NCBI RefSeq assembly: GCF_000002075.1 | Contig: NW_004797348.1 | Span: forward strand, 1,399,851 to 1,463,850 | Reading direction: 5' to 3' | Source of the DNA: Aplysia californica | Lineage: Eukaryota | Length of the DNA stretch: 64,000 nucleotides | Shown here: in pieces, positions 36,999 to 62,604 of the stretch | Layout: each line of letters starts with the position of its first letter | How positions within the stretch are numbered: position 1 is the stretch's first letter | The notes under the pieces: generated by a model | What the model was told of the DNA's origin: nothing | The model's database searches: none | The model's input: the letters and a program-made list of their open reading frames with translations, nothing else | Position numbers and translations under genes: made by a program

Positions 36999-37429
36999 TG
37001 TGAGGCATCATGGTGAAATCATGCACTCGTCAAATAAATGAAATCGAAGAAATCAGCAATTTTCGGCCAGTTTGGCAAATTTTTTTTCGAATTTTTGTAT
37101 TTTGTTTAACACCTTGTATGTCCATTCAAAAACATTTATGTGTGGATTTTACAGAAAAACATTGATTAAAGGCACAGAAAACGTAAATTTGCAGTTTCCA
37201 AAAACTCTCAGGCAATGGAAGTTATCAAACTTTGGCGGCCATTTTCTCGTTAATTTTACCTCTAAAAGCCTGCAACCCTGACCTCCAATCGCAAATATTT
37301 AGACTTCCATTCAACATGGATATTTTTTTTCCCTAAAAGAAAGGCAAATAACCAGGCTTTAAGATCATACCAATAACCCCGTATGCCTAAAAAATTGACG
37401 AGTACCTGATTCCACCACGCCATGACACA
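36999..37429. mobile_element. ~431-bp TIR-bearing non-autonomous element (family X), copy 1
   Basis: Ends TGTGAGGCA..TGGTGAAATCA..CTCGTCAA / TTGACGAG..CCTGATTCCACC..TGACACA; colinear with 46838-47268 and 62158-62604. Confidence 0.8.
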
Positions 37430-38738
37430 AATACTTTTGTGTGCATGACTAAGACAGTAAGCGTTAACAACGAATGCCACTGGGAACCGTGTGGGAGAAG
37501 ACAGACAGTATTACAAGAAATTAAGTTCCAGTAACATACATACGTGAACTGATAAGATAACTAATCAACTGCTTGGAAAGAACAGATTGGAAAAAAATCA
37601 TTTTATAATGTACAAACAAGATTATTTCACACTTTTTGTGTTTTTTTAAAGTTTTATCAACATGAAACTGACACCTGCAACAAAAAAGTAATCCTTTGAT
37701 TACACAAAAGTGCCAACAATGATTAAGACCCCAAAAAAGAATCTATACAAGATTTTTCCATGACAAGTGAAAGGTAAAGGTACAAAGAAAAACACCTACC
37801 AGTCATCAACACGACAAAAATGACAATTTCATTCTAAATAAGGACTTGAGGGACACAATCCGCAAATACTGCACTTTCAGCGAAATATACCATCAGCATT
37901 CGAAAATTTTTGGAGACACCAATGGACACAACTACAATGGCTTTCAGTGAGCGACAAAAAGACAGGCTTCATCAAGGAATGCATGTCTACTGAGACCATA
38001 ATTCTAAAACTTTTTTTTCCAGGACCATCACAGCCACACTAAAATTAAAAAATCAGTCTTCTCTTGTATTTACACTTTCTGGTTTCAAGGTGTTTTCCAA
38101 CTGACTCATCGGTTTGATCACACAAAGGAGAATTAATTAAGTAAAAATGAAGCACATATCATAAAGCAGCTGGCCCATCTTTCCTGTTCTTCAAAACAGA
38201 ACCAAATCTTCAGTTGTCCACAACATCTTTCAGTTGTAAACCTATAACCATGGGTATAAAAGAAACTGCATAACTATCGCTTTCATGACCATATACAACC
38301 TAGGGATGACCAGTAACCACATATAAATAGAATTTTGTCATGTACATTTTGCCAAACCTTTTTTCAAACCTTCAAATCCTCACAGAATGTGGATCTATTT
38401 TGCATTTCCAAAAAATTAAAGAAAGAGCAAATTAGAAGCTGACTACAGGATGTCCCACCATGTTGACGACGAGCTGTCGGAAAAATCTTCAACTTGTTCA
38501 ACCTAAGGCACTAGATGCAATCAGATCACTCTTCAATCAAAAAGTCACAGTAAGTTGCCTATAGTCAGTTTCCCATGCCTATTCTCCATTTTATCACACT
38601 CTATGGTTTTAGAAATCACCAATGTGTCTGTGAGAATGCATGCTATTAGCAAGTTTGTGCAGACTAAAATAGTCTTTCAATGGAGATTTTTTTTTCTAAT
38701 ATATTTTGTGTCTTCTTTGTCCTTAATACTGTACTTCT

Positions 38739-39268
38739 TCAAACTCCCCAAGACAAACCTTTCAGAAACTCATCGAAATCTGCATCAGACATAGCCTCAA
38801 GGTTGAGAGCCTGCGACTGTAATGTGCTGGAGGGGGAATGAGTACTGATACTGGGGGAACCGTTGAGGATGCTCTCCACCGGGGCTAGTGGCGGAGGGCT
38901 GTCCCGCACAGGATGTGGCGAGTTGTGAGACTGGGAGCTCGTTGAAGGATATGGGGTGGTCGACACACAGGATGAATGACTAGCACTGGCAGACGAAGGC
39001 GAGGAGCACTGTGAATTGCTCAGGACAACAGGTGGGGAGGCGGGCATAGCTGCAGCTGGGGTGGGTGATGGGGTGTCCAGGGTGATGACGGGGGGTGAAT
39101 TGACTGGATCGCTTGAAATGACGGCATCGTCATCGTCATCTTCATCTGAGCTGTCTATGGTTAGATCAATGATGGGGCCTTTGGACGAAGCAGGCTTACT
39201 TGATGACGACGACACAGTCCCTGACCCTCCCATCAGCTGTGAGGACATCGTCGTCGTCGTCACTGTCG
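38739..39268 (-). CDS. PIAS: PIAS last exon, long frame ([19 protein letters not shown], Ser/Pro-rich tail, ends [11 protein letters not shown])
   Basis: Canonical PIAS SIM/acidic domain; in-phase acceptor ctcttatcatcatcag|CG at 39268 (exact acceptor less certain, see findings). Confidence 0.85.
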
Positions 39269-41903
39269 CTGATGATGATAAGAGAATGCATTTCCTCAAC
39301 AAAATCTACAGAAAGGTCCAACAAACATACAAATAAACAATACCAAAAAAATACAGAAATCTGAAGTCACTCAAAATCTTGTTACTAGATCAAAACATTA
39401 AGGAGTTCCTTCAGCTTTCTCATAGTCCCAAGCAATGAAAACAAGCCACAACAACTAAAGTATAACTAAAAACTAAAGGAAGTCTACAGCTCAAGTCCAG
39501 TCATCCACGAAGAATTTCTGCTTTCAAACATGATTTGTTTGTTCAAGTAAAAAAAAAAGGAAAAAAACACAGTTTCCATTCAATAAACTGAACTTGAAAA
39601 GCAAAAAATAAACCTTCAAGCCAGAGCAGGCATTTCTTGTCCTACTGACTTGTCAGAATAAAATTTGGCCATTTTTCTTTACATACAAACTGGAATCTAA
39701 CAGTGCCATATTTCAACATCTAATGTTAACTTAATTTACCTGTGAGTGGTGAACTACTTCTTGACAAAGATGAAGACGATAGACTCGACGCCATTGATGA
39801 CCCCTTGGAGTTGGGTGTGAGAATGACTTGTTGAGAAGACTCCTTCTGGGGCTTCATGGGCGACCAGCTTCCATCTTCATGAAATATAATATCTGTGCAG
39901 GATGGAGAGTCTCTAAAGATCTCCACAAAATATCTGAGGACAATGTGCATGACTGATAGAGTTGGGACTGTGAAGGCAGTTTATAAAAATTATTGCTACT
40001 TTTGGTTAAGTCAAGCATTAACATAAAAGTTTGAAACTTTCTTGTCGATACTTGTTCAAGTGCATATTGCTCCATAAACTGTAAAGTCTAGGTTGCAGAG
40101 CTCCACCCACTAGTTCTCATGATGCAAGATATTCTTTCACAATGAAAAGTGTATGCAAGATATTTATAATTCAGTTTTTTCAACATGACTTTAACTTTTC
40201 AAGCCATTGGCCTACTTCTGTTTTGTTTTTTTGCAGCAGGTTTAGTTGGAAATAAGCATACAGTGGCACTTTCATCTTAGCAAATAAGCCGCTATGATGG
40301 CACAAATTCAGCTTGTCTGTAAATGTGCCAACTTTAAAGGGTTAAAGATAACTGTAGCCTAAGCCATTGAATACATAGTCCTGAACAGAAATACATGTAG
40401 CTCAACTGTAAAGGTAACTATGTGCTGCCGAGCGCAGGAGGCAAACATGTTTTTCGACGACAATTTTTTGGTTGGAAACGAATAAGTGATCGCTTTGAAA
40501 GCGCCTTCCCAACTTTGAAATATTTCCATCCTTATTTCTTCTGATATTACCTTAGTTTCTACCTTTCCAAACAAAACCTAATCAACTTCAGGAACTTTTA
40601 AAAATAAAAGTAACAAAAAATATTTCTCAGGATCCTCCCAAAACAATAGTATGGGAGCAAAATAAGTAATTTGGAATCCAGTAGACTACTTAATGAAATG
40701 AATAAGCCAAGCACTTTAGCAGCATTTCTAGACTGGACTAGAAACTCACTGATGACAAAAAAATCTAAACTAATGTAGTCGAAACTAATCTAGTACCATT
40801 CCGTGAGTCAAGTGACTGTCAAAACAACAAATTATTACACTTTTAATTAAAACACTTGACCTTTCTCATTATTTGACCTGGAATAAACAACTAAAACATA
40901 CCCGTCGATGATAAGTTTGTCATAAGGACACTGTCGGTCACAAACTGGACACATCCAAGTTGGCTTCCGCTCATTCATCATGAGAAATGTGGAGGCGTCA
41001 AAACATTGCAGATGCGTGCATGTGCTTGCCCGACATGGAATTTGCATTCTCATTTTTCCCAACTGCAGAAAAAAACACAAAAATGTATTTAACCAATAAT
41101 CACCTCAATGTATTACAGGAAATAAAGAGTACTGGACAGCAGTTGTTTATATGAACATTCAGTTTGACGACAAAACACAACACGCTTTTCTAAATTTGGC
41201 AGATACGAGAACCATCATATCAAGAAAGGAAAGTGACACTCCAGATGCAGCTTCTTTTTTTAACAAAAAGCTATTTTTTCCTCTTTTTAACCCCTTGACT
41301 ACTAACCATATATGTACCCTACATGCTAAGGAAAATTTTAACGTGCATAAGACATCGGTGGTCACAATCTTTAATATATGATTGTTCGTTTATTTTAAGA
41401 GACGGATCGGCAAAACATACCAATAGAAAGATAAATGATGAGAAAAATTTATCCATAGACAGGTACTACATAGAACAAATCTTATCGATGTAAACAACTT
41501 GAAAGTGCTAAGACGAAAAAGCGTTTCAATTCTATGCGCTGCCTCCGTCTCGCATGTGTGTGAGATAAACAAATACACACCTTGCTTTGTTATATTGGTA
41601 ACAAAGCTCGCGCTTCTCACCAAACTACAATCAGTAGCAAGAGAAATGAAGAAATGGATTTATCCATGAACAAGACTCGGGTAGAACAAGCTGTAAGGAT
41701 GTAAACCAGTGTAAAGAACTGAGAAGAGCTTTCTGAGTCGACGAGTCTCATTTCGCACGATGTGTGCTTTGTTACGTGTTGTAGAACCCACCCTTTCCGT
41801 CCAATAGTCTATATAAAGATATGACTTCATGGCTAGAATGACAAGCTTTCATAAAAACCTTTCTTACTACTTCCTTTCTTCTCATGCAATATATATTAAT
41901 TTA

Positions 41904-41943
<40 letters not shown>

Positions 41944-44900
41944 TTTTCATCCAGATATAGGAACAGAACAACTATAATGAAAAAGAAAGTTAAAAGCTTA
42001 TGAAAAATGGCTACAGTCGGAGTTTCAACGCTTCAAGTCACATGTGTCAAGCTCAAGATTGATTCTGGTCAGATATGTGTCAAAAAGATCAGAGTCAGAA
42101 AAATTAAGAGTAAGCCAACAGTAATTACAATTATTTCCAAACTTATCCCTCCCCCCGCCCCAATTTCAGTCAGAATAGTATTTAATTCCATAAGCAACTC
42201 GGCCCACAAATGCCCTTGAAAATAATTACCTGCCTTAAAATATGAGATTTATGTGTAGCATGGTTTCTCATCTTAGATAAACAGATACCTTTTTAAATTC
42301 TTATGTGCAATTAAAGTGGGAAGAGAAAAATCTCAAAGATGAATACAAGATGCCGAATAGAAAAATGTTCTAAGGTAAACAATCTTCAAACAACATCCTA
42401 TGCAGAGGAACTGTCCCTTCAAAACAGGAAGACTCTACAGAGACAAAAAATCCTTAGCCCCAGTAAATAAGACTTCACAATTTAACATACCGGGCACATG
42501 AGTGAGACTCGCAAACTTGTTGTAGCAATTTCGCTGTCTGGGTCCTGAGAAAGTTTTTCTTTGACTGTGGGAAAAAAAGAGGAAGCAAAAGAGTTAAATT
42601 ATTCCATTAACACAAGCAGACACCAATTTTTCATAGCCAAATACTAAAAGAAATTTACCGAATATTCTTGAACATTCTTTTGATATGCTGTTGCAACTTA
42701 CACATCCAGAGATGCCAACCACAGAAAACCGAAATGAGTATTGGGAAATATGAAAATGTGTATTTTCAGGTAAAAATGTGTATTCCCCACGACCGACCGA
42801 CCAACTAGTAATAGTAAAATGTTAAGGGGGTCCAGCAATATTTCCTGAAAAAAAATGACTAGCTCACCAGCTCGAAAAAGGGAGCACACACACGTACAAT
42901 ATACATGTATCCAATCAACAACATGTCAGTGTTCAGTGTCGTACTGGGGTCTTGTTTGACTTATATATTTCAGTCTATTATACCGGTAATATTTTCCTCT
43001 CATTATTATGTAAAAAATAAATCCTGCTTTGAGAGTTCGGAACACGGCGCACCGGCAGTGGAATTTTAGTTGCCGCGGGGTGTTCCCCGCCGGGCGCCTT
43101 ATCACGTCGGGGTCACGGGGGTCAGCTCCCTGTCGCCGCTCTGTCTGGGCCGACTTAATTTTTGGTACTTTTCAACGTACAATTTAAGGTGTATCCTTGT
43201 ATTTATGGTAATTCTCATTTAGTGCACCCAAAGCACGCATTTCTGCTCTTGAGACTAAAAAAAGAACGGACGTTGTAACTTGTCTGGTTATTTCGTTAGA
43301 CGCCCTGGAGTCGGCAATGCTAAATTGTAATTTTTGGGGGACTAGCGTAAATGAAAATAAATCAATATAAAAAAAACGCATCGTCAAAATCTGTCGAACT
43401 TTTGGAATATGAACGACATAACATAAGTGCAGATACTCAGAAAAGATGGTATCTGCGCTTATAATAGAAGGCTGTAATTTTGCAATTTTATCCATCGGGC
43501 ACACAATTCGCTATGAAGTAATTCCTCCAAATACAACTTTATGTGTCTAATATAATCATGAATATTCGCATATTTTCTCGAAAGTTTATAAAAGTTATCA
43601 TGAAGTTTCTCAATGAAAAGTAAAAATCGATTTTAGTGCTAGAATATATCTTCAACGTAGATCTAATACACGAACAGTATCTGTTACACTCCAGAAATTG
43701 CTTACTTTTCTTAAAACGCTAAGTCTAGGTTTTGTAAGTTGACTGAATAATAAGGATGACTTCTCGTAATTGGGTTATAAGAATAATTTCTAGCTTTCCA
43801 GGGACACTGAATCAGCACCAGACTTTTCCAGCTTTTTTTACGTTTCTATGACCATTTGCAATAACTGACAATGTGACTGATTTCTTTACATTCATAATTG
43901 TGTCCGCGCATATTTCCTGCACAAAAACTAAGAATGAATGTTTTAGCTGTCATTATTTTTATTCCATACTAGAAGTTTATCTCTACCCATGTATTTACAC
44001 GGTTTTGTGGTTTTTCAAATCGCTTATATTATATCTTTTTAGTTGTATGCAGGCTGCCACAGACACAGCATGATTCATGAACAAACACAGAGTAACTTTC
44101 TCTTGTTTAATAGTAAAATAAGAGCTAACGCTGATCGTCTTTAGTTAAAATATGCAGATATGCATCTTTCTTCTCTTATAACTTGACTATTACTACTACC
44201 GCAGATTTAAGATTTCTTATGGTAAAAGACATGATATTCGTAGTCAGTTTAACACAGAATTTGGAGAGATCTGTCGTGCCTTTTTTAAAATAACAATCAT
44301 TTATTCATAACTTTGTAACTAAAATAGGACAAATTGGGTACTCTACAAACACTTGTCTAGAACAAAAACTAAGGCACAGAAACTAACCATTCTAACGCAG
44401 AATAAATCTCAAGACATTGAGCTTTTAGTACATTCGCGTAATGGTTTTCTGTGTGGGATGGGGAAGAAGTTATATCGTTTTAAACATAGTCAAAAATGCG
44501 AACTTCCCGACCGACACCGGCAAAGTCGCCTCAGGGCTCATTAACCCCGTGACCCCGAGCCGGGGAGCTCCGGCGGGCTGCTGAGTCACGCGAACTAAAA
44601 GTAACAGAATCGGGCGAAAAGTGACGCCGTGGGAAGGGCCTAGAACAAAAATTTCGACAACCAAGAACCAGTCTGGGTGTCATGATTCATATTATGAACT
44701 GACAGACTCAAATTATTGCTCAAACTCAGAGAAAAGCGATAACTTGAATGACTCAAGTAGACCCATGCACTGTGTTGTTGTTGTTGTTGTTATGTTGTTA
44801 TCGATCCAGCAACAGCTGGGCTCTCGCCCTTCTGTCCAATGCCATGTAGTGATAAGTGCAGGTCTGCTGCAGTTGCTGTAATGTTCCATAGAGTGTGTTG

Positions 44901-47900
44901 TCTATGTTAGGTCTCGGAGAGAGAAGGGTAGCTCTGATGTCATTTAGGGCTGTGCAGTGGAACAGGTGATGCTCCACAGTCTCATATGCATAGTCACACA
45001 AGGGACACATTGGGGGAAGTTCCGGGTTTATTCTGGGATCAAGGACTGGTGATGGGTCTCATTTAAATATTGAGAAATGCCTAAGCGTCTCAAACAGCTT
45101 CTCCCAATCCAGCCAACCGTACCTGCCCGTGGTGGTCCCTGTCCTCACTGACACGGCTCTGGCGAATGGCGAGTTGTTGGCGCCCACAAACCAACCCCCC
45201 CGTTTCCTAGAGGGGTTAAAACAACAGGATGGGAGCAGGTGTGGCCCCACAAGGTGCAGGAGGCAGAACCCACCGATGCGTGGTAGACGCAATGCTCCTC
45301 ACTAACACGCTCCTACTCTCCTTTGAGTGGGTGTCTAATCTGCCTAACACCTCTACTACTTTCATCAACACACCCTCTGTGGCTGAGAAGGTACCAGCCA
45401 GTTTGAGTGTGTCTGGGTGCAGGGGATGGACCGAGCAGAATGCGTGACTTGCTTTCTGGCCGTGAAACCTCTTAGTAAAGGCACAACGACCCAGGACGTG
45501 ACCATCCAATGGCTTCCCCACTTGGCCAATACCTCATGAAAGAGTCGAAAACCTTAGCCAGTAGCCATTGGTGGCGGGGAATGGGCAACGTGAACCCTAC
45601 CGGAATTACACGGTCACAGGGCAGTTAGGTCTTTCCAGTCTCTTGAAAACTCCTAGTACCCTCCTATCCTCAACATGAATGGCCTCTTCTCAGGGTGGGC
45701 AGACAGTCCACAGACACCCCAGTCCACAATGCCATGACACCCATGCACTGTGAGAGTTGTAATAACTGTGGTAGGGCAAGATGTAGTGACACTGAAAATC
45801 TACCTGTCTTGAACAGAAAGCCACAACATACACTGTAGGCTAAGTATAATTTACTATCACCCATCCAATGAAACGCGAACACATTATTTCAATAACACAG
45901 ACTTGCAAAGTTTGAAGGGTCCCGATTCCGCACACGGCCTGCACCAACGCGCGCTTTGCAGAAAGCTCTAATCAAAATTTTGAAATGTGCTTCCAAGTTT
46001 TTGTCCCTCCCCCATAATATCTTAAACCTCCAAAAAATCAATAATCTCCTCCCCTATTCCGTAGTCCTATACTTCGCAAGGCCGTTACTCCCACCAAAGA
46101 CGGTCTTTGCTCACACGATGTCGCATTTATTTATGACACGAATGCGCGCAGGTTCAGTGACCGGTCACGATGGCGAGCCAGAAAAAATCTAAAAATCGGT
46201 CGACGCTTGTATTTTCTTTTCTTTTTTTTCCACAAGTGACAGCACAGAGGCGAGTCCGAGCATTGATTAAATTTTATTTGCACGGCAACCTTGCGTTTAT
46301 ACTGCACAACCTGCATGTCACAAAAGTTGCTTTATTAGACAACTGCTGGCAAACTACTATGTGGTAACGAAAGCGAAAGTAGATCTTGATTTTCCCGATC
46401 GAGCCTTGGTGTCACATACGCTTCTGCCTGCCGCCATAGCTGCCTATTCGCGTGAAAGTGAAACGTACTCTCCAGACAGGGAGAAGCTGAACGAATATAA
46501 TATCACGATCGCGACCGGCAAAAATATACTTACTAACCACACTGGACTTGGTTTTCAAATATTCCAGTTCTGCGATACTGATACTATTTTGACAAAAGAT
46601 GGGACTAGAGATAGGTTTACTCATCCAAGCTGAATCTCGTATTTTTCGCATTCCAAGATGCGTATTTTTTCATGAAAAGTAGTATTCGCACATTTTCCGA
46701 AAAAAATCGTACTAAAATACGTAAAATCGTACTGGTTGGCATCTCTGCACATCTTACACATAAACATGAGAGGAGAGACAATCATTTCAGAACAACACTG
46801 AACTTCAATGCACACGGCTGTAATACTCAAAACTATTTGTGAGGCAGTGTGGTGAAATCAGGCGCTCGTCAATTTAATGAAATTGAATAAACAGGCGATT
46901 TTCCATCAATTTGGCAATTTTTATCAAATTTGTTCTAGGGCTAATCATCTTTAATGTCCATTTAAAAACACATATATCCGTGTTGACTTTACGAAAAACG
47001 TTTAAAGGCGAAGAAAATGTAAATTTCCAGTTTCCCAGGGCTCTCTAGCTATGGAATGCATCAAACTTTGGCAGCCATCTTCTCTGTTTTTAACTCTGAA
47101 ACCAGGCGACCCCCACCACTTTCAATTGTAAATATCTCAACGTCTGATGAAAATAAAGAGTTAATTTTTTCACTGAAAGCAAGACAAATGAACAGGCTCT
47201 AAGATCATACTAATAACTCTACATGCCCAAAAATTAATGAGCGCCTGATTCCACCGCGTCGTGACACAATTATTTCCACAGGTTACAAACGTTTTTTGAA
47301 AACATTAAAATCTACTACTTTCCCAGAACTATCTGCATATCAAAGTTTGGGCTCATACAATCCACCCATCATTTTCTCTACATATAAGCTAGCACCTGAT
47401 AAGTTATCAAAAAGGCAAAAGGGGTAGAGGGGTCTGATTATCTGACTTACCAATGCTTAAGGGTAATAAACATACTGCTCATGTACCCCCACCTTCCCCC
47501 GATCCAACCAGGCCCAAAATTGATTAAACTCAAGCCATTATATACTGTCAATTTGCAACACACCAGCACAACTGCCACATTTCTCTATGCTAACACCAAA
47601 TGAATGAACTTACAAGGTGACGACATTACCAGAATGCTTTCATGTCACCAACCCTCCCCTTTCCAACAGACAACTAGTACCAACAACAGATGACAATTTT
47701 GAGCGCTCCTACCCTTAAGCGTATGATTGGGAAACATACTGTATGAACTTACTTAATGCTTTAGTGTGGTCTGAATGGCGATTACCAAACTGCTTCAGTC
47801 TATGTAACAAGATGTCTGAAGACAGTTTCTTCACAAGGTATATGGACATACAGAAACTCTGTTGGCAGGAAACAAAGAATTAAAGTTACTGAGCATGTCT

Positions 47901-50900
47901 GAACATATAAGCAAGTTACAAAACTGGTGTTAGTAACATTTTTTTAAATGAGAAAAAAATTCAAAACTGACACTGATTGAGTTCAGTGTGGTGCAAAAAC
48001 TTTCATAAGAAAGTATAGCAAATACTGTTTTATTGACAAGTAAGAACCAAACTAAACTTAAAAACCCCAAAATTATTCTTTCTGAGGATATATTTCCATG
48101 TTAGTACAACAGTGTTGTAATCTAAACACTTTCAGCTCCAAAAATGAGGCAATAATTAAAAAGACGGATGCAGGAGAATAATCACAAAATCATAATGTCA
48201 GAACACTTTGATTTCACATTGGCCCATTTTTCCTTTTAAAACTTTAAAGATGAAACTTTCATTCTTACCTAACCTTACATCAGGCATGGGCAAATTTAAG
48301 GCCGCAAGTCGACACAGTAATTAATAATGAATGTGTCCTGCTGTGAATCAATAATCAATAAAAACAAACTGCCTGCCTTGGAAATTAAAATCAATAGTTT
48401 TTCTGGCCCAGCTGAAAGAAATAGGTCCAGTATTTTATCTCAAGAAATGCCCTTAAGTGATGTATGCTATAGTGTCAGTTTTCGTCCCACTTTTGAGAGC
48501 TTAGGTATTTCAACTGATCCTTCACCCAATTTTCTCCTGCTTTGGCCCCCTAGGTATTCATAATTACTTAATTTGGCCCGTAACTTGGACATGTTTGCCC
48601 ATGCCTGCTTAACCCAATAAACCCTGACCTCCTGAGCCCAAAATAATCAGTCCCCTGGCTTCCTGAGAAAAGAAATGCCTACATGGCAACACTCCCCAAG
48701 AACTCTGCATGGTTTCTTTATTCAAACCAATTCCCTCTTCCTTGAGCTGCCTTGATTGCTTTACAATAGTTGCAACGAACCTTGTAAGTCCTTTTGACAT
48801 CATTTTCCCCCTTTTTATCCTTGTATGGACTACTGTTCTAAGGTAGACATGCACACACCTATATATCGGAGCTGCAGGGCAGGGGAAAATAACTCGCACA
48901 CCAATATATCGGTGTCACAGGTTCATTGGGTTGACATTTATGGTGAACCAACTGTGGCCCATTGTACTCATCACAAAATATTCAACGAGAATTTTGTTAA
49001 TCAGCATGTAAAAAACAATGATTAACACACAAAAATTTTAACAAGGGAAAAAATGCTTTCAGCAAAATCAGTAGAACCAAAAGCTCAGAAATACATTCCT
49101 GAATTACTCTTTCAAAACATGTAACAACAACTTGAAGAAACAGCAAAGAGAAACCAGAAAAAAGCTTCCAATCAAGCAAAAGAACAGAACGTTTTGAAAC
49201 AAAGTGATACCACAGCAGCACTTGGAGACCAAGACACATGTATCTGATTTGATTGAGTAGGGCTTAGTCGGCACAATGAAGTTATATCTATAGGGCTGCC
49301 ATACTTTTTTGGTGGAGCTTTATTATGCAACGGCACAGGTTTCGACTGAAATAGTGAGAAAAAAAATAGCAGAATCATAGACAAGTGACAGTGTGAGGTC
49401 ATGAGTACATACCCGAGTGAAGTCAGTGGCCCAAGAGACAGTGATGGCATTGGACACAGTCGGGGACAATCGACAAAGACTCGTGATATCTACAGGTCTC
49501 CCTGGTCGCTTTGGCTCTACATTGGGCTTATTTGTTGGGATTACATTCTGCAATTATTCAAGAAATAATACAGGGACTTACAGATTTCTCTCAAGGAGAG
49601 CAACCATGGTCTGGTCTTTCCCAACCTATTCACAGATATGGCCTTGCAAATGCAATAGCACATTATTTCATCATTTCTATGAATACCTAAAAAGTTCTGT
49701 AGATGCAGTCATATTACACTAACAAATAATGTAGAATAACAGAAAAGTTCTGCTACATGCTCTTTGTACAAGTCTTCTTATGTGTGAATTTCTGTGTATG
49801 TGAAAGCATGTGTGGTGGTGACAGTTGAGCTGAGCTGTCGAGGAAATGCTTGAAAGCACTGTCAAATATCTGTTTTATAAATACAAGCAGCACATGTTAC
49901 TATCACAATCACTCTATTCTTAATTTACAACAAATCTGTTGGAACACCTTTTCTTTATCAATCAAGTATAATCTAATTCAAACATTACAAAACTAGTATT
50001 TCAGATAAGTATGGACCATAACATTACCGGCAACGTTGCTGGCTTATTGTTCACACGGACTTGTATCTGTGAGGGGAACGTGTCAGCCTGTTCACATGTC
50101 GTCTCCAACAGACAGAAACGCACTTGAACCTGCACTGTGTACTCACACTTGGCCCCAGGCCGGAAATCCCTGAAAGAAAAAGAAAAAAACTTATGAAGAC
50201 AGTTTCTAACTTAGGTAAAATATTTTTACAGTTTTTGGGCATAGGTGTAGTCATGGACTGGGTCTACACATATTTACATTTTCCAGTAATGTTCAGTGTG
50301 GCCAATTGGGTCAACTTTAGCCAGGAATAGTCGGTTCAGAGAGCATACAGAAAAAATAAAAGCAATGACCTTTAATTGCCCTCAACTGATTTTCATAATA
50401 TATGCAGGAACAACTTCGGACATGTCAAATGTTATCTATTCTGACAAAAATGTTGAGTATCAGCACGAGGAGCCTCCATTATAGTTGCCATATTTCACAA
50501 CAATTGTTTTAATCAGAAAATCCTAATTAACAAAACCTGGAAAGGGTAAGGTGAGAGTGGCCCTCTACTAACCTGGACATGGTGATGTCCTGGGCTTGTT
50601 GTGGGGTTAGATGAAACACAAATATCGTCTCCTGCATTCTGCTGCTGGTTTTTGGAACTGGTGGGAGTAAAAAAACAAAAATATCATCACTGAAGTACTC
50701 AAAAACATTCCAATAAATTATCAACATTCATTTAACTTCATCTACTAAAGAGGGCCAAAAAAAGTACATACAGCACATATGTATTTTATCCCCTTTGTTG
50801 TTCAAAGACAAACAGTGTTTAACCTTCGACATCCATGGAGCATTATCTCTAAAGCAAAGGCATTATCAAGTCTGCCAACATAATATGGCATGATATGAAA

Positions 50901-53900
50901 ATAACATTATTACACTTACTGTTTCCAAATGTTAAATTTTGAAATGTGCATTTGTATTTTAACACCCTTCAAGAGGAACTGTGAAAATCGAAGGGGGCAT
51001 AACTTCTTTATGAAAAGGTTGGTAAAGCGATAGCACTGTATGCAGGTGACAGTTACAGTTAAGAGACTGTCGATGCCATGACCTTTCAACCGCGCCTACT
51101 TTGATTTTTATTTAAAATAGTTTTACATTTCTTACCAGACACTTGCTCCTTATGAGCTTCAGGTATAATTTTTTTCCTTCAACCTGACCCTCAGTCAATA
51201 GATTGGCACCAAAGGAGGCCAACAGGAGACAGTAAACATAGACAAGAGAGCCGCATCCCTCTGATTGATGCCCCCCCCCCCCTACCCTATGACTGAAGAC
51301 AATGAATTCTTGTTTCATGGGAGGCTCAAAATTTGACAAGACAAGAAACACACACATTTGTGTAACATTATGACTTTGGCACTCCCAACTTGAAGACACG
51401 AAATACTTTGGAAGCCATAATGCAATATATCTTTGTAAATGGAAAACGTTTAAGTGACATTCTATGACATAGGTACATCAGTCAGTTGAGCACTCTAGGA
51501 CTTACTAAGGCTTGAGGGTTTCATAAGATCCCCTAGCACATCATAAAAAGGCAGGCGCTTTAACTTCACGTCTGGGTTCACAGGAATCGGGGCTTGAGTG
51601 ATCATTGACCTCATGCCACTCATCGCATTGCTGTAGTCAAGGCCAACTGTAAGAAAGAAAAACAGGTATTCCATTTGTTAAGAATAGAATCTACAGTTTG
51701 TGTACTTTTGACATGCAAATCTGTTCATGACCCAGACACATCCACAGAGCTAATTGTTTACAAGTATTTCATTTTTAACTGGGGAAGTCTAAACAAAGTA
51801 AATGCTGGAAAAATTAGACCTACAAAAAAAGGATGAATGGGAAGCAGAAGCTCCAAAGTCTTCTAAAAGCCAGGAAAGCATTATCTTGGCATGCAAACAT
51901 GTACCTAGTTTTAAAAACATCTTCGCCATAAACAGATAAAAGTATAAAAGCATGAAAGTGAAAGGCCTCCTGAACTGGAAAATTCTTGCAATACAACAGC
52001 ACAACAGCAAAAATAAATATGAATAATCAGTCTAACCAACATCAATGAAGAAAGTATTGGTAATGCTTCAATAACCTAATATTTTACTTCTTTTATGTCA
52101 TAGTTATATGTTAATTTGCAAATTCAAAGAATTTTTTTTTTTACTTTAGTTTTAATGAGTTTTATGGCACTCGCAACAAAAACAGGTCATGTAAATCCTG
52201 AAGATTAGAGGTGTTACAAGAGAGTACCATACAAAAAAAAGGGAGGAGAAATAAGGACAACAGTTCTTTTTTTTTAAATAGGAAAACAGGAGCAAACCAC
52301 ACTAGAGCATCCACCAACCACCTATTTCCCGAATGAATGAGAATGGAAATAGAAGCAAAAACTGAGCCCATTCAAAGGACTGCAATGATACATTATAGAA
52401 CAAAATCCTTCCAAACATTTATTGTGGGGTTGTATTTTTTAAATTCTACAACCATGATTATTAAATCTTTACAGCTTTAAGAACAGCTGCCTTACTTTTT
52501 AAAAAGGTAAAAAGGAAAAAGAAAAAAAGAAAAAGAAAAAAAAACAGAATGCTGCGTGCTATTTAAAAATTAAGAAAAAGTGGATGACGTCAGGACACAA
52601 CCATACAAAAGGAAAAAACAAAACAAAAAGTGTTCTTATACGAAGAGTAATGCATATTGTCGCTCTCACAAGAAAAACAAGTGACTTCATTTAACTCTAC
52701 CCTGTGCGGCAATTTTTCAAAAACTGGGACTTGTTCATTTTTGTAGTAACTGCAACAAAAATATATTTGACACTGACCCACAAACTTTTCCTCCCACATC
52801 ATTTATAAAAAAAGCAAAGAATAGTTAGCATGCCTCATCTCCACTGCGAATATCTGTGGATTTACACCACCTACTCTCTACCTTCTTTTAATTAATTTTA
52901 CTCCTGAGAGCCAAGTTAGGCACTTCACTTGCTCAAACATAATATAAAAGTTGTTCATGACACTCAAATTAAGTCTTTTCAATACAGAATGCTAATGCAT
53001 ATAATTGCTCCAATACAGTGTCCAATTGGCTTTGTTATCACGACTGCGACTTGTAAAGACACCCAACTACTTCTTAAATTAACACAGTACTTTCCACATT
53101 GATTGACATTTACTTCATTAAGTTGTGGTGTTACGCCAGTTTCCAAACAAAGAGTACATGCTAGTTAATTTCCTTAATTTAAACTGAAAAAGCTTAATTT
53201 TTCAAGCCAAATTCTCCATTGGCGTTTGCCACGGACTGAGAAAAAGTAGCACTCCAAAATTAAAGTGTTCAGCTTTACCAGTAGATTTCTAAGACTAAAA
53301 ACAAAATTTTAAAGATTTTTTATACAAACATTTCAACACCGGTGATAAATTTGGAAGAAGCAGTATCACATAAATAAGATATGTGCATTCAAGAGCAAGA
53401 CTACAGTAAGTGTCAACACACATTGGGGTGAACAAACCAAAGTGATGTACAATCAGAGGAATAAACAATGCTACATGGTACAAACATCAAAGTGTTACAT
53501 AGACCAAAAAAAACAAACAACAACAACACAAAATATGGGTAGAGCAAATTGAACTGTACATTTTTTCACTTATACACATAAAAGAGAGGTACACAGACAC
53601 AAAAATAGTCATAAGATTTTTGTGCCGAGAAAAGGTAAGGAAGGCAAATTATCAGAAATGACAAAGTCAGTCAAGAATTTTAGAATTAGAACCTACTGGT
53701 CATGCCCTCCACTCATCATTCTGTATGTTGTTTCTCAGACAAAGAACTGTCATGTCTGACAACTTCCAATATAAGTTTAGAACAGTATCTGAGTGTGCTT
53801 TATGTTACTATTTACAACCTGTTCCCAACAAAAACTAGTACAGCAGTCAAAGATTATGTCATCTACATGTTTAAAAGTAGTAAAAAATTATATAATCTCT

Positions 53901-56900
53901 AACAATCTACTATATGCTTTTAAAGAACAATGAAATGACTTCAAAACTTTTTTATTATGACATATCTGACCTAAGGTGAAACACTTCTGCTACCCAACCC
54001 AGTCCCTTGCGAAACCTGTCTTATTATTCTATACTAATCATACACTAGATCTAGATCTAGATGTTGAAATACAAGCCACCGTGACAAGGAAAATGGGACC
54101 AAACCAAAACACTAAAATGTTGTCATGTCCCTCTCACTATTTGTACATTCCTGAAAATTGAAAATCACCTGTGAAAAAAAACTGTTTGCCAACGGGTCTG
54201 TACTTTGTACGGAGTTCTTAAGTTCTTACTCTACAAAATGTTTTGTATCCTAGGCAGAGAAAAGTAATAAATACTAGAATGGGAGCAGAACTATGACTAA
54301 CAGAACTACACTCAGCATAATAAGACCAACACAAAAGTAGTACTATAATAATTCACAACATGATATCGATGACCTCTCGTTTTTCCTGAAACTTGACAGT
54401 AATAAGCGACGACTGCAAAGTGTTTCTGACCTCAAAGGTTTTCACTCTGTTTTCAAACTATTGTCAGACTCATGATGCCTTCCATCTCTGACATCAAACT
54501 GAATCAAGAACTTTAAAAAAAATCAAAGTCAATTTTACTATCTTCATAAAAACTTCAGTAAAGCCCAGTGAACAATGACCATAGTGGTCACAGACAACAT
54601 ACTGACAGAGAGGAAATAAGTATAAAACAATCAACACTTAGACACTACTATAATCATAAATGAAGTTGTCCTGATGATTCAATTTCCGCAAAGAAAAAAA
54701 TCCAATCTTTGAATAAAACCAATAATTAGGTTAATGTTAGCCATGCCTGACCACTGTAACAAATAAAAAACTGGCAAAAACTAAATCATTTCCTCTTTTT
54801 CATAATGACTATCTATCCAAATCAGTACAAACTCACGAGGACAGTCAAAGTGGTCATGGTGATGACGAAAAGGCGGGTATCTAGGAGGTGGGTATCTGTA
54901 AGACGGGTATCTAGGAGGTGGGTATCTACATTGGTACATGTGTGACATAGTACTGCTGTCTTTAAAAAGTTCCTCTCATGGGATACAACAAAACCCCAGA
55001 CAGAACACACAACACACCAATCCACCAACAGAAAACCAATTAGCTGAGCAGAGAAAATAGAGTGAACAAAATAAATTGGGAGGGTAGGCCTAGAAAGAGA
55101 GGGCTGAACACATTTACTACACATCAGTGTGAGAAAGCACCTGTGAAAACAGTTCACTGAAACTTCTCACTTTTTTGCAACAACAACAAAAATATAATTT
55201 CAGTTTCAGTTTGCCTTTTTCAAAAGCTGCTATCAAAGAGAGAATGCAAAATCCCAAAGGCAGGAGATCTAGAGCAACAACACAAAACCACAGATAGGTC
55301 AACAACATTGTCACTAACAAAAACAAAACAAAAAATATTCAAACCAGTTGCATGCAAAGCCTTTTGCAATGAGAAATTCCCTAATGAGGAAAAAAAAAAG
55401 GAACATAAAGTAATTCTTTTAAAAATACATTGCAAGCACATAAGAAACATGGACGTTCTTTACTTTAACTTACTTAAGCTTAACTAAGCAGAATTGCTGG
55501 TGCATCTTACTTAATCTAAATTATCGCGACACCGTGTAAAGAAAGTTTAACCCTATCAGAACGTTGAGTTTTACTATCGTATCCATACCACGTGGGAAAC
55601 TCTGTACCACCCCTTTCCAAAGAGAAAATTTACTCGTTAATCCGATCCATACACTTTGCATAGCAGTCTGTCAAAATTATTTTTTGAGAAATACTGATAA
55701 GTTTCAAAGAGATCTTTGCACTAGAAGTTATTCTAAAATGTGAAGAAAACAACCCTGGGGGTACAAAATGACCTCGGGGCGTAGGGATAGGGTTTAAAAA
55801 CTTGTATTTCCCCCACATTACAGTCAACATCAATTCAGCAAATGTAATGAAATTACAGACTGACCTGGCAGCTGCAACACACAGTTTACAATAGAAATTA
55901 AACAGCAACTATTTCTTCTCTTTTTATAGTAGAGAGTTTTACGGCGCTCGCAACTGCATAAGGTCATATGAGCGTCAAAGGGTGGGTGTCAACAGAGAAG
56001 TCTTTACAGGGAATCAGACTTATTCTGCTCACCTCTCTAGCTTCAACAGCACAAGGTCTGCTTCGACTATCAAGGCACCCCGAAAATAGCAAGTCACAAG
56101 AGAGTGACAAACATACAAAAGAAGTAGAGGAAAATGACAAGAGTAAGGATTAAGAAAGAAAAAGCAGCAGTTCCCTGTTGTAGATCAGGCACAGTTATGA
56201 GCATGACATGAATCAGCCCATTTATAATTCTACTGTGCTTGAACGAGAAATGTCCCCCCTTTGGGAATGGCCTAAAGACACTACAGTCAGTGGCACTGCC
56301 CCGGGGGGTCCGCTATTTCTGTGCTTTCTTTCTTGTCAAAAGGCACGGTAAGGGACCCTTATTCTTTATTTTGGTAGTTCATTCATTGTCTTTTGTCTTT
56401 TACGTTATGTCACACTTTTAAAGAAAAGCTGAACTCATATTTCATTTGCAAACATCCACTTGAATTCATTTGAATCACCTAATATATTTGAAAGAAATTC
56501 AAAACCCAAAACTTTCCAACAGAGAAGCATATTATATACCAAAAAAATGGAACATATCCCCCCAAAAATTTAACAAATTAACTTTGTAAAAATGCAGAAA
56601 AACAGCCATTCTCAAAAGGCACGCCCAGCTGGAGTGTATCTTAAGATCCAAATAGGACAAAAGGAAGATTGATAGGAAATACCGATCCAAATTCATGATC
56701 TTTGAATTAAATACATATGAAAACTCCAGTGGAAAAAACAGGAAATTATATATATAATATATATGTTAAAATATACTCTATTCAATAAGAAACCAGCCAT
56801 ACTCCACAACTTCACATAACAGACGTCAATGATTTTGAAAATGATAAGTATCGGGTGCTCTCAGTTTTTCTTGCTGCATCCTCATCCATGAATACCACTC

Positions 56901-59900
56901 ACGGGATAAGTCTACATTTCCGTTATAATTTTAATAAGCTTGTTTTAAAAAAGGGGGTCAAAATTAGTGGCATTTCAAGACACCATGCACCAATTTTCAG
57001 AATCCCCTCCACCTCCTTGTTAATCACAAAAATGAAAACCCTTCTGAACTTCATCTAACTTTGCATAATACACACGTAATATATATATATATATCAACAG
57101 GAAGAAAGCTCACTAGCACTGCATTCATTTTTCATAGGCAAAAATCATGGAGTGGAGACACATCCATTTTACTGTAAGCAAAACTGAACAACCAATCAAG
57201 TGCAGTAGTTTTAAAAAATAAACACACTTTCCAGTTCAAAAGTTATGTGTCATTATTTTCTTTACAAGAAAGTAGGAAAGACAACCAGTGAAGACTGCAT
57301 GAGAATTAGAGAAGCATAAAATTTAAACATCTGACAACGTGCAACTTTATAAAGCCAACCTTTTGAGAATGGCCCACAAATATAAAAACAGTACCAAGCA
57401 TCTATAATACCTATCCAAGATGAACAAGGCTAGCAGCAAACACATGCAAACTGTGATTACACCACAAGAAATATACTTTCTGTAATGCAAAAACCCAAAC
57501 CCTGTTTCTTTTCCTCAAAATCTGAAGGGAAAATATACCATTAGCTTCCACATTATTAAGATTTCTGTACTCCCACATACTCCTTCCTCCTCCACCAAAA
57601 TCCAGTTCAGTGAGGTAGAAAGCAAGCTTACCTGGACCCTCTGGAGGGTACCCAACAATTCCTATAAAGAAAATTAGAAGGAAAAAAATAAGGTTACTAC
57701 TCAATGCAAAAAAAAAGTCAGCAATAGAAGAGATTAGAGCAGCAGATTATAGCCAACGAAATGAATAAATGAAAGCAAATACAACACATGTTTAAAAAAC
57801 AATTAGAGGTAACTTTCTCTAACCCATTTTCACAACGACAAAATTATCTATAAGAACTTTAATTCATACAAAAAACGAACAAATGAAGATGCAGATAATA
57901 TAAGCAGAAATTATAAAAGAGATCAAGCAAAAATGAGGCATGTAGATCAAGAGTATTTAATTCCAGCTGAATAGTAGCCTTTCTTTCTCTGACAGGTCAC
58001 TTTTCCCCCCAAGTAATCAACAATACAGGCAGATGGAACTTTAACAAACAACTGGAGTCAAACTTTTGACAGCATCATGAGAATGATACACATTAGATCA
58101 TACATAGCGTTCTAATCTGAAAGTCGAGTTTGACTGAGGCGCACATAGACATGTCCATATATACAATAAGGTTGGGGGTGGGGGGTTTAAGCGTAGGGCA
58201 TAGCAGGCTTAAATGTGAAAACTAAAATCTATTCAAATGGACTTCAGTGTCTAATGTGACAGGTTGTGGGACTAATCCTTATCTGTGAAAGTATTATGGT
58301 ATTAAGTTAAAAAATTTGTGTTGCAATACAAAACTCAAACTTTCAAATATATGGGAAACAGAATGAATAAAACTTCCACCAGTCATGCTTTTACTCACCG
58401 GTGAAACAAAACATCCCTACCCTTTTTTATTCACATCTTGAAAAACATGCAAAACAACACAGCAAACCAGGTGCAAAAAGGAAAAAAAATATTTCAGGTA
58501 AAAAAAAAAAGCACACTTCCAAGTTGGAAACAAGAACTGACTACCTCAACCATGACAACCACAAGTTTTGTCAAACAAGCCAGAAAATAAAAATGGAAAA
58601 GGAATACACTCCAACAGTCACCCAATTCAGTCCCTTCCACTACCTTCAAGTAATTAACCACTAAAAAAAAGATGAAAGCAAAATGGACAAAACAAATTGA
58701 CCATACAATATGATGATCAGACATTCAAAAAAGGAAAAAGATTCAAAATGAAAACAGAAAAGGGATTAGAGACATGATATAATTTATAAGATAACAAAGC
58801 TGCTAGTTTCTACTTTTTTCAGTTTAAAAAAAAAAGTATATTACATTGTCGGATATATAAAACAGTCCCTATAAAATGCTCACCTTGATGTCTGTGCATG
58901 ACAGGCATGTTCACTTCTTTATGAGGGGGTGGGGCACTAGGTTGACCCTTGGTGACAGGGTAGATTTGCCTGAGGATAGCATTTCATTTCCAAAGTTACA
59001 GGAGATACACGCGAGAATATTGCAAGAACTACATTTTGCCCTTACATTACAGTAGGAGATTATAAATTATAAAAACAAAAATACAAAAAAGTAAAAAACA
59101 CCAAAGCGCCCACCAACTTCTTGCTTACAAAATTGCACACTAAATTCTGTTCAGCTTAGTCTAGAATTTATATTATATGAAATCAACACAATTAAGGCAA
59201 AACTCAACCAAAAACAAGACCAGAGCTTGGGTTTCTTAAAGTAAATAGAAGCAAATTGACACAGCAAGGGTCATATATGTAAAGCAGGGAAAAGTAAAAC
59301 AAACAGGCCGACACAACAGAGGGTTAGAAAAGAAGTCTGACCTGCCAGTGGCACCTTCTAACTACAACTACAAGCAAAACTTTACAGAAAAAAATGTAGA
59401 ACAAAGCCCTCCCCCCCCCCCCCCCTCCCCTCCAAATATAATGCTCATAACCTTAGTAATCAACACGTGTAAACTTGAAATTATGCTGCTCTAACAAATG
59501 TGTCACACGCCGGGGAATCAGGCGCTTGTCAATTTTTGGGCATAATGAAGTTGCTGTGATATATCATCTTAGAGCAGACCTGCCAACTTCTCCATGATCA
59601 AAAATGGGAGTTTTCCTCAGAATCCTCTCTAGAAATCTGAGTTTGAGGGGGGAAAAAATCAGAGATTCTAGAACCCCGGTAGATTCAGATTACATGTCGA
59701 ACCGTCCCAGGTTTATTAACATATACAATTAAAAAATATGTATTTTCACATCATTTGACAATAAACTGAGGAAATATATTGAAAATATTGGGGGAAAAAA
59801 ACAAACATATTTCAAAATCAGTTACATGCGATCAATGTTTGGAATTCAGGGGGGGGGGGGGGGATTTTATGCAACGAAGTGTATACAGACCCGGTAACCG

Positions 59901-62157: not shown

Positions 62158-62604
62158 TATGAGGCAGCATGGTGAAATCAGGTGCTGGTCAAAATAATGA
62201 AATTGTAGAAAATGACACTTTTCCATCAGTTTTGCAATTTTTGTCAAATTTTTGTTTTTTGGCTCAACACCCTTTTTAAGGCATTCAAGAACAAATTTCT
62301 GTATGGATTTCACTGAAAAATGATGATTAAAGGCACACAAAAAAGTAAATTTTCAATATATCCATGGACTCTCAAACTAGGGAAATAACCAATATGTGGC
62401 TGCCATTTTCTTGGTAATTTTACCTCTGAAACCAGGCTACTTCCACCTCCTTCAATCGCAAATATTTTGCCTTGTATTCAAGATAAATGGGTATTTAAAT
62501 TTTTTTCTAAGAAATCAAGACAAATGAACAAGCTTTAATATTGCACCAATAATTCTGCATTCCCAAAAATTGACAAGCGCCTGATTCCCACGCGTCTTGA
62601 TATA
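62158..62604. mobile_element. Family X MITE, copy 3
   Basis: gaggcagcatggtgaaatcaggtgctggtcaa ... aattgacaagcgcctgattcccacgcgtc; colinear internal sequence; flanked by (TA)n. Confidence 0.78.

What the first reader, a model, noticed from the sequence alone, without database searches (positions are those of the whole stretch)
39196..39305. Dual-frame last exon of PIAS: two acceptors 37 nt apart each yield a SIM-bearing C-terminus
Seen: the preceding exon ends in phase 1. The first AG after a long U-rich tract (ctttctgtag|, 39305) gives [40 protein letters not shown]. A second AG (catcatcag|, 39268) gives the long canonical tail [10 protein letters not shown]...[17 protein letters not shown]...PPVITLD...[11 protein letters not shown]. 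The same (GAC/ACG)n DNA reads poly-Asp in one frame and poly-Thr in the other. Established: [VIL]-rich core + Ser + acidic run is the CK2-type phospho-SIM pattern (Daxx IIVLSDSD, PML VVVISSSED), and vertebrate PIAS2 has alternative C-termini. Inference: a short isoform swaps in a different SIM (plus a second CVVVI core) and drops the Ser/Pro-rich tail. Alternatives: a 1-nt assembly indel in an exon that really carries both SIMs in one frame, or use of the GTAAGC at 39199 as a donor.
Basis: partly seen in the sequence, partly recalled or inferred. Interest (0 to 1): 0.75.

Follow-up and report, generated by a model that had tools for sequence, protein, structure and literature searches.

The report
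Snail PIAS dual-frame tail switch
In the sea hare Aplysia the last exon of the SUMO-ligase gene PIAS has two splice acceptors 37 bases apart that read the same DNA in two frames, and gene models of three other snails keep the same overlap, so these animals likely make a short ligase whose tail swaps in a different, predicted SUMO-binding motif.

Summary
The short isoform is already a RefSeq model (XP_012935665.1, 494 aa). Short tails starting D-F/L-V-E-E-M-x-S-L-I-I-I-S-acidic are also annotated in Biomphalaria, Physella and Bradybaena and occur in one unnamed intron-less JGI protein. In all four named species the short and long tails fit one DNA sequence at a single offset, 37 nt; 0 of 12 cross-species controls fit. 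The first 13 residues are 92% identical across the four species, against 24-29% for flanking linkers. Codons after the second acceptor are biased towards Asp/Ser in the short frame. An assembly indel, the 39199 donor and the second 'CVVVI' core are not supported. Against: the one RNA contig laid used only the 39268 acceptor, the raw reads did not reach the junction, and SUMO binding was not tested. Best reading: a conserved, probably minor, alternative-acceptor isoform that keeps the ligase core, replaces SIM1 with an overprinted phospho-SIM and drops the tail. The conserved block also fits a nuclear-export pattern. Dual-coding last exons are a known kind; I found no paper on this case.

The parts
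38739..61991 (-). PIAS gene of Aplysia californica (SAP, PINIT, SP-RING); coding exons mapped from residue 9 on
   Evidence: 100% identity to XP_012935664.1; exon map from RefSeq proteins; Pfam PINIT and zf-MIZ
39740..39933 (-). Penultimate coding exon; phase-1 donor ACAG|GTAAAT shared by both isoforms
   Evidence: joints 40902>39933 and 39740>39268 in RNA-like contig X5
39306..39359 (-). U-rich tract and upstream acceptor AG (39307-39306); exon starts at 39305
   Evidence: used by RefSeq model XP_012935665.1
39269..39305 (-). 37-nt segment that is coding only in the short isoform and forms the 3' end of the intron in the long isoform; ends in the downstream acceptor AG (39270-39269)
   Evidence: 11 of 13 residues invariant in 5 taxa
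39247..39282 (-). Predicted phospho-SIM of the short isoform: LIII core (39282-39271), Ser codon spanning the downstream acceptor, acidic run
   Evidence: sequence; S471 and D474 invariant in 5 taxa; consensus from PMC8616421; binding not tested
39274..39303 (-). F/L-x3-M-x2-L-x-I block matching the commonest nuclear-export-signal spacing; overlaps the SIM core
   Evidence: 5 of 5 short tails; pattern from PMC3442415; low-specificity pattern
39196..39268 (-). Dual-coded region, 73 nt: Asp/Ser-rich in the short frame, Thr/Met/Ser-rich in the long frame; short stop TAA at 39198-39196
39126..39173 (-). Family SIM1 of the long isoform ([16 protein letters not shown]), absent from the short isoform
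   Evidence: same motif in all 17 other named long forms printed
39075..39095 (-). Second SIM-like word of the long isoform (PPVITLD)
   Evidence: similar words in most gastropod long forms; function inferred
38739..38807 (-). Near-invariant C-terminal 22-mer of the long isoform and its stop codon
   Evidence: 46 of 48 euthyneuran long-form records end in KGLSWGV; 0 of 211 other PIAS-family proteins held
49413..49547 (-). PINIT exon 9A (45 codons), same gene, separate splicing event
49211..49345 (-). PINIT exon 9B (45 codons), annotated in place of 9A

Best explanation
The last exon of Aplysia PIAS has two acceptors 37 nt apart that open two reading frames, and the upstream one likely yields a conserved, probably minor, 494-aa ligase whose disordered 36-aa tail is predicted to bind SUMO through a new phospho-SIM. 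Shown: the downstream acceptor (39268) is used in RNA and gives the 634-aa form with SIM1, a second SIM-like word, the Ser/Pro tail and a near-invariant C-terminal 22-mer. Annotated but not seen by me in reads: the upstream acceptor (39305), which keeps SAP, PINIT and SP-RING intact. Inferred: selection maintains L-I-I-I-S plus acidic residues in the short frame as a CK2-type SIM 85 residues behind the RING (109 in the long form). The switch would then keep one SUMO-binding site and ligase activity while removing the tail's other interaction motifs. The stop lies in the last coding exon, so the short mRNA would escape junction-dependent decay.
For: Short tail in 1 of 8 Aplysia, 2 of 12 B. glabrata, 1 of 14 Physella and 2 of 6 Bradybaena paralogue-1 records. 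Also in P0057, an unnamed JGI protein whose 562-aa frame lies on contigs of at most 3.8 kb and so is likely spliced cDNA; it groups with the euthyneuran proteins at 100/100. Each of the 4 named species' short/long pairs fits exactly one offset, 37 nt (40 nt for two one-residue-shorter variants); 0 of 12 cross-species pairs fit. Residues 1-13: 92% mean identity, against 24% for the 13 upstream residues and 29% for long-tail residues 1-13. Asp/Glu/Ser in the 7 short-frame positions after the second acceptor: 7, 6, 6, 6 observed against 1.7-2.5 expected from the long-frame protein (P 4e-5 to 3e-3); in Aplysia this is the most extreme of 515 windows in the gene. phmmer aligns the short tail's SIM-like word with the human PIAS2 SIM region in 4FO9. 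Median RING-to-SIM distance is 81 in the 71 of 131 RING-bearing representatives where my pattern found a SIM. The tail is disordered in the AlphaFold model, pLDDT under 50 for residues 425-494.
Against: The only record crossing the intron, contig X5 (depth 44.9), uses 39268, and nothing laid covers 39269-39305; contigs drop rare forms, but the short form was not seen. I could not see the RNA support behind the annotated models. No short tail in 3 Arion records, 3 Bradybaena paralogue-2 records or 8 single-model records. Without relatives' DNA, protein-level and RNA-level constraint cannot be separated; the variable columns are one-base changes. The codon test used Aplysia codon usage for all species, a window chosen after seeing the data, and related species. 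A SIM alone does not explain the conserved D-F/L-V-E-E-M part. SIM consensus matches are often false (PMC8616421).
Confidence: 0.68

Rival explanations
1. The short isoform is real, but the conserved block works mainly, or also, as a CRM1-type nuclear export signal, sending a catalytically intact PIAS to the cytoplasm.
For: F/L-VEE-M-xS-L-I-I matches Phi-x3-Phi-x2-Phi-x-Phi with acidic spacers in 5 of 5 short tails; the long tail has no match. PMC3442415 (passages) names this spacing plus acidic spacers as typical of true signals. It accounts for the conserved residues that a SIM does not, and the F-to-L change keeps the pattern. The region is disordered.
Against: The same pattern occurs 4 more times in the folded part of the Aplysia protein. 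Consensus matches hit 93% of a negative protein set (PMC4168985). The model shows no helix there (only 5 of 34 alignment rows carry the tail). It does not by itself explain the selected Asp/Ser run.
Confidence: 0.2
2. The 37 nt and the following GAC repeats are conserved as splicing signals for the downstream acceptor (branch point, pyrimidine tract, exonic enhancer). The short form is a tolerated by-product or a truncation switch, and the SIM likeness is incidental.
For: The segment is the 3' end of the main intron, and the main form uses the downstream AG. The differences among species are single-base steps. Poly-Thr read one base off gives poly-Asp. GAC repeats as SR-protein enhancers: recalled, not tested.
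Against: An open frame, 11 of 13 invariant residues, and Ser with Asp three residues later are kept in 5 taxa, while the long-frame residues over the same DNA turn over. The segment contains a purine-rich stretch unlike a pyrimidine tract. No unusual RNA fold (z 0.08).
Confidence: 0.1
3. Annotation or assembly artefact: an indel merges the frames, or predictors picked the stronger-looking upstream AG with no transcript behind it, or the GT at 39199 splices onward.
For: I saw no read for the short junction, and model evidence was not visible.
Against: Contig X5 matches the genome without a gap through 38739-39268 and runs unspliced over 39199. The 37-nt offset recurs in 4 species. None of 8 Aplysia models uses 39199. 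P0057 carries the short junction in one continuous frame.
Confidence: 0.03

Closest known systems
Human PIAS2 alpha/beta (PIASx-alpha/beta) C-terminal isoforms
   Same: One PIAS gene gives a long form with a Ser-rich tail and a short form; the ligase core is shared (PMC11094195, passages).
   Different: They diverge by alternative use of exons 13-14 from residue 551, behind the SIM that both keep. Here the switch lies before SIM1, uses two acceptors of one exon in two frames, and replaces SIM1 with a different motif.
Alternatively spliced dual-coding regions (10.64898/2026.05.28.727796; PMC13160074; PMC13247117)
   Same: A frame-shifting splice choice gives two C-termini from shared DNA, typically in final exons, with constraint on both frames (passages).
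   Different: Those surveys cover human and C. elegans, and 'PIAS' occurs 0 times in each main text. I saw no case there of both frames supplying the same kind of motif, but I read passages only and no supplements.
Phospho-SIMs of Daxx (IIVLSDSD) and PML (VVVI core)
   Same: All-hydrophobic core followed by Ser and acidic residues (PMC8616421; PMC4476178).
   Different: Those are shown to bind SUMO and to be phosphorylated by CK2; here only the pattern and its conservation are shown. The family's usual SIM1 core is V/I-V/I-D-L; 3 of the 149 non-self representatives carry an all-hydrophobic core like this one.
PIAS SIM2 (C-terminal in PIAS1-3; between RING and SIM1 in PIAS4)
   Same: PIAS proteins use more than one SIM, and position varies (PMC8998487).
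   Different: There both SIMs lie in one protein; here the two motifs are mutually exclusive.

Membership tests
PIAS/Siz SUMO E3 ligases | PINIT and SP-RING (zf-MIZ) domains | tested here: met
   Pfam E 1e-30 and 9e-22 in the short isoform, both above cut-off; PDB 4MVT and 4FO9 at E about 1e-119 and 1e-117
PIAS/Siz SUMO E3 ligases | N-terminal SAP domain | tested here: met
   1V66 (PIAS1 N-terminal domain) at E 1e-20 over residues 1-63; Pfam SAP is below its cut-off
PIAS/Siz SUMO E3 ligases | SUMO ligase activity | not testable with these tools
   needs an assay
Alternatively spliced dual-coding region | Same DNA read in two frames through a non-triplet splice choice | tested here: met
   37-nt offset, 73 nt shared; same offset in 4 of 4 species
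Alternatively spliced dual-coding region | Both junctions present in RNA | tested here: inconclusive
   39740>39268 seen in contig X5; 39740>39305 not seen, and raw reads had no depth there; short form present as annotated models and in P0057
Alternatively spliced dual-coding region | Selection on the alternative frame | tested here: met
   92% against 24-29% identity; codon bias; dN/dS not possible without relatives' DNA
Phospho-SIM (Daxx/PML/PIAS type) | hhXh or hXhh core flanked by acidic residues and Ser | tested here: met
   LIII-S plus 3-6 acidic residues in the next 8, in 5 of 5 taxa; consensus
Phospho-SIM (Daxx/PML/PIAS type) | CK2 phosphorylation and SUMO binding | not testable with these tools
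   Ser with Asp at +3 is invariant and fits the CK2 consensus as recalled; no SUMO sequence was held, so no complex was predicted
CRM1-dependent nuclear export signal | Phi-x3-Phi-x2-Phi-x-Phi with acidic spacers in an exposed region | tested here: met
   the pattern has a high false-positive rate
CRM1-dependent nuclear export signal | CRM1 binding or leptomycin-B-sensitive export | not testable with these tools
   needs an experiment
PIAS2 alpha/beta-type isoform pair | Divergence behind a shared SIM by alternative terminal exons | tested here: not met
   here the divergence precedes SIM1 and uses one exon in two frames

The most novel reading that the evidence does not exclude
Euthyneuran snails evolved, by overprinting the 3' end of an intron and the start of the last exon, an overlapping export-signal and phospho-SIM module. 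One acceptor choice would then turn nuclear PIAS into a shuttling or cytoplasmic SUMO ligase in which CRM1 and SUMO compete for the same residues under CK2 control, testable in identified Aplysia neurons.
Probability: 0.17. Interest if true: 0.72.

Novelty: new variant of a known kind. Interest (0 to 1): 0.48.

Why it matters
It is a clean invertebrate case of a frameshifting splice choice in which the second frame is under selection and appears to rebuild the kind of motif that it deletes. That bears on how short linear motifs arise by overprinting. It also predicts that PIAS in Aplysia (a learning model) and Biomphalaria comes in forms with different SUMO avidity, partners and possibly location. 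The isoform sits in public gene models, but ten literature searches found no description of it. It does not open a new class of system.

Tried and rejected
No whole genome is held for the window. Run search: 24 runs, no holder on record as RNA; word shares were not used as evidence. I laid 4 of the 24. The three raw RNA runs gave 48-50 reads each, almost all near 38700-38950 and none in 39073-39314, so they say nothing about the junctions. A search with the 56-aa stop-to-stop frame containing the short tail found 0 hits among 13 candidates, although the annotated isoform exists, so it was insensitive. A degenerate DNA pattern for the short tail found 0 matches in metagenome contigs. A scan with P0057 gave 3 loci at 37-67% identity; I read part of L001 only, it looks like an arthropod PIAS and was not used. 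ESM Atlas gave no usable hit for either tail. No Pfam family in either tail. No Rfam match in 33000-64000. RNA fold of the acceptor region is unremarkable. Earlier scan findings: none. Rejected: indel, 39199 donor, CVVVI as a conserved second SIM. A proximal poly(A) site near 38716 is not claimed, because the reads end in A-rich DNA and internal priming is possible. The script stopped at its tree step after printing the codon test; the tree was run. One 157-aa fragment (P0048) was left out of the Physella count. No SUMO-peptide complex was predicted.

Full report
Observation. On the minus strand the exon 39933-39740 ends in phase 1 at ACAG|GTAAAT. The shared DNA is 39268-39196. Both acceptors lie within the range of the gene's 13 other acceptors for pyrimidine content.

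Identity. The long tail is 100% identical to Aplysia californica PIAS (XP_012935664.1). The eight RefSeq models of that cluster include isoform X8, XP_012935665.1, 494 aa, which ends in exactly the short tail and maps to 39305. The short form keeps SAP, PINIT and SP-RING.

RNA. No genome was held. Of 24 listed runs I laid four on 37500-41100. The three raw RNA runs had 48-50 reads each, concentrated near the 3' end of the coding region and with no depth at 39073-39314, so they are uninformative for the junctions. The fourth, a contig set whose RNA nature is the tool's guess, holds one 2819-nt contig (depth 44.9) with joints 40902>39933 and 39740>39268. It has no gap in 38739-39268 and is unspliced at 39199. 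This shows the long form, excludes an indel downstream of 39268, and gives no support for the 39199 donor. It does not show the short form; contigs drop rare variants. The short form is therefore probably minor, at least in that sample, and I have no junction count.

Conservation. Short tails of the same kind are annotated in Biomphalaria glabrata (XP_055885417.1, UniRef A0A2C9M493; 2 of 12 records), Physella acuta (XP_059148340.1; 1 of 14) and Bradybaena similaris paralogue 1 (BFY97270.1, BFY97271.1; 2 of 6). An unnamed JGI protein, P0057, also has one. Its 562-residue frame runs through what are many introns in Aplysia on contigs of at most 3.8 kb, so it is likely a spliced transcript (inference); it groups with the euthyneuran proteins (100/100). 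No short tail was found in 3 Arion records, 3 records of Bradybaena paralogue 2, 8 single-model records, or 211 other PIAS-family proteins held. Those sets are mostly one model per gene, and caenogastropods, vetigastropods and bivalves were not identified among them, so the age of the feature is open; it spans at least sea hares, freshwater pulmonates and land snails (over 200 million years, recalled). Lacking relatives' DNA, I asked at which offsets each species' short and long peptides can be encoded by one sequence with an AG before the second start. The answer is 37 nt and no other in 4 of 4 species, 40 nt for two variants one residue shorter, and none in 12 of 12 cross-species controls. 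The architecture, not only the peptide, is conserved.

Selection on the short frame. Residues 1-13, encoded by DNA that is intronic in the long form, are 92% identical among the four named species (11 of 13 invariant in five taxa). The 13 residues before the junction are 24% identical and the first 13 of the long tail 29%. After the second acceptor, the long-frame wobble bases are those that make Asp or Ser in the short frame: 7, 6, 6 and 6 of 7 positions against 1.7-2.5 expected. In Aplysia this window is the most extreme of 515 in the gene (p about 1e-4; best window outside the overlap 0.01). Caveats: window length chosen after seeing the data, Aplysia codon usage used for all, related species, and repeat slippage. 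Beyond about residue 20 the tails differ freely, and 'CVVVI' is Aplysia-only.

How it likely works. The conserved core L-I-I-I-S with Asp three residues after the Ser fits the SIM consensus and the Daxx/PML phospho-SIM type (PMC8616421 and PMC4476178, passages). It lies 80-89 residues behind the RING, against 95-109 for SIM1 of the long forms and a median of 81 in 71 of 131 representatives. phmmer aligns it with the SIM region of human PIAS2. Three of 149 other representatives carry a similar all-hydrophobic core. AlphaFold models the tail as disordered. I infer an active ligase with one replacement SIM that lacks SIM1, the PPVITLD word, the Ser/Pro region and the C-terminal 22-mer found in 46 of 48 euthyneuran long-form records. 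The stop is in the last coding exon and contig X5 is unspliced down to 37859, so junction-dependent decay is not expected. Binding, phosphorylation, activity and protein expression are untested.

Rivals. The SIM does not explain why D-F/L-V-E-E-M is conserved. That block with L-I-I fits the commonest export-signal spacing with acidic spacers in 5 of 5 tails (PMC3442415). The pattern is unspecific: it matches 4 more times in the folded core, and 93% of a negative set in PMC4168985. An RNA-level explanation remains possible because the segment is also the main intron's 3' end and the substitutions are single-base steps; only DNA alignments can settle it. An artefact is unlikely.

Comparison and novelty. 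Human PIAS2 alpha and beta diverge behind a shared SIM (PMC11094195, passages), so this is not the same arrangement. Dual-coding last exons are a known and common class (10.64898/2026.05.28.727796, PMC13247117, PMC13160074; passages), and PIAS is not mentioned in their main texts; their supplements, which I did not see, could list vertebrate PIAS cases. Searches for a description in molluscs and on PIAS SIMs or isoforms returned nothing on this event, judged from listings and abstract starts; the library lacks most subscription journals. I also read passages of PMC8998487, 10.1101/533232 and PMC9316396; the last two added nothing.

Verdict. A real, conserved dual-frame alternative acceptor, already present as predicted models but apparently undescribed: a new variant of a known kind. 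Confidence that a selected short isoform exists is about 0.87; that its tail acts mainly as a SIM, about 0.68. Interest 0.48.

Noticed in passing
window 49547-49413 and 49345-49211 (-): Tandem pair of 45-codon exons in the PINIT domain, annotated one in place of the other. Exon B models exist in Aplysia (XP_012935663.1), Biomphalaria, Physella and Bradybaena. Identity A-A 96%, B-B 69%, A-B 36-47%. B replaces the family's PTNKP-VEPKRP stretch, so it may change substrate choice; with the tail switch it gives a combinatorial set. No reads were laid here.
   Followed up: partly
window 38807-38742 (-): Euthyneuran long forms end in a near-invariant acidic and aromatic 22-mer (46 of 48 records), whereas the Octopus, Lingula and Lineus proteins end in a V/I-I-x-L/I-D word like the family's terminal SIM2. 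No Pfam or Atlas match. Function unknown; lost in the short isoform.
   Followed up: partly
P0006 vs P0024 and P0042 vs P0038 (relatives' proteins): Biomphalaria and Physella long forms also have a variant one residue shorter, fitting a tandem acceptor 3 nt further down (offset 40). In Aplysia an in-frame AG lies 6 nt down at 39262.
   Followed up: partly
window about 16290-22850 (+): The tail-to-tail neighbour looks like Mef2: weak HJURP_C hit (E 0.004, below cut-off) and an IKSE-containing C-terminal exon. The Mef2 name and its being a PIAS substrate are recalled; one search gave listings only. The adjacency may be chance.
   Followed up: partly
window 38716 and 38687 (-): 3'-end reads in three RNA runs end in poly(A) 23-52 nt behind the long stop, inside A-rich DNA; a proximal poly(A) site or internal priming. 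Contig X5 extends to 37859.
   Followed up: no
window 36999-37442, 46825-47275, about 62170-62600: Copies of a roughly 450-nt element with terminal inverted repeats, about 80% alike (the third copy by eye); likely a MITE.
   Followed up: no
window 44798-45058 (-) and 14591-15000 (+): Short frames that resemble the ends of non-LTR retrotransposon proteins (resemblance recalled, not searched).
   Followed up: no
P0006, P0007, P0009, P0057 N-termini: Several snail PIAS models replace or interrupt the SAP domain with long charged repeat-like segments; alternative first exons or modelling artefacts.
   Followed up: no
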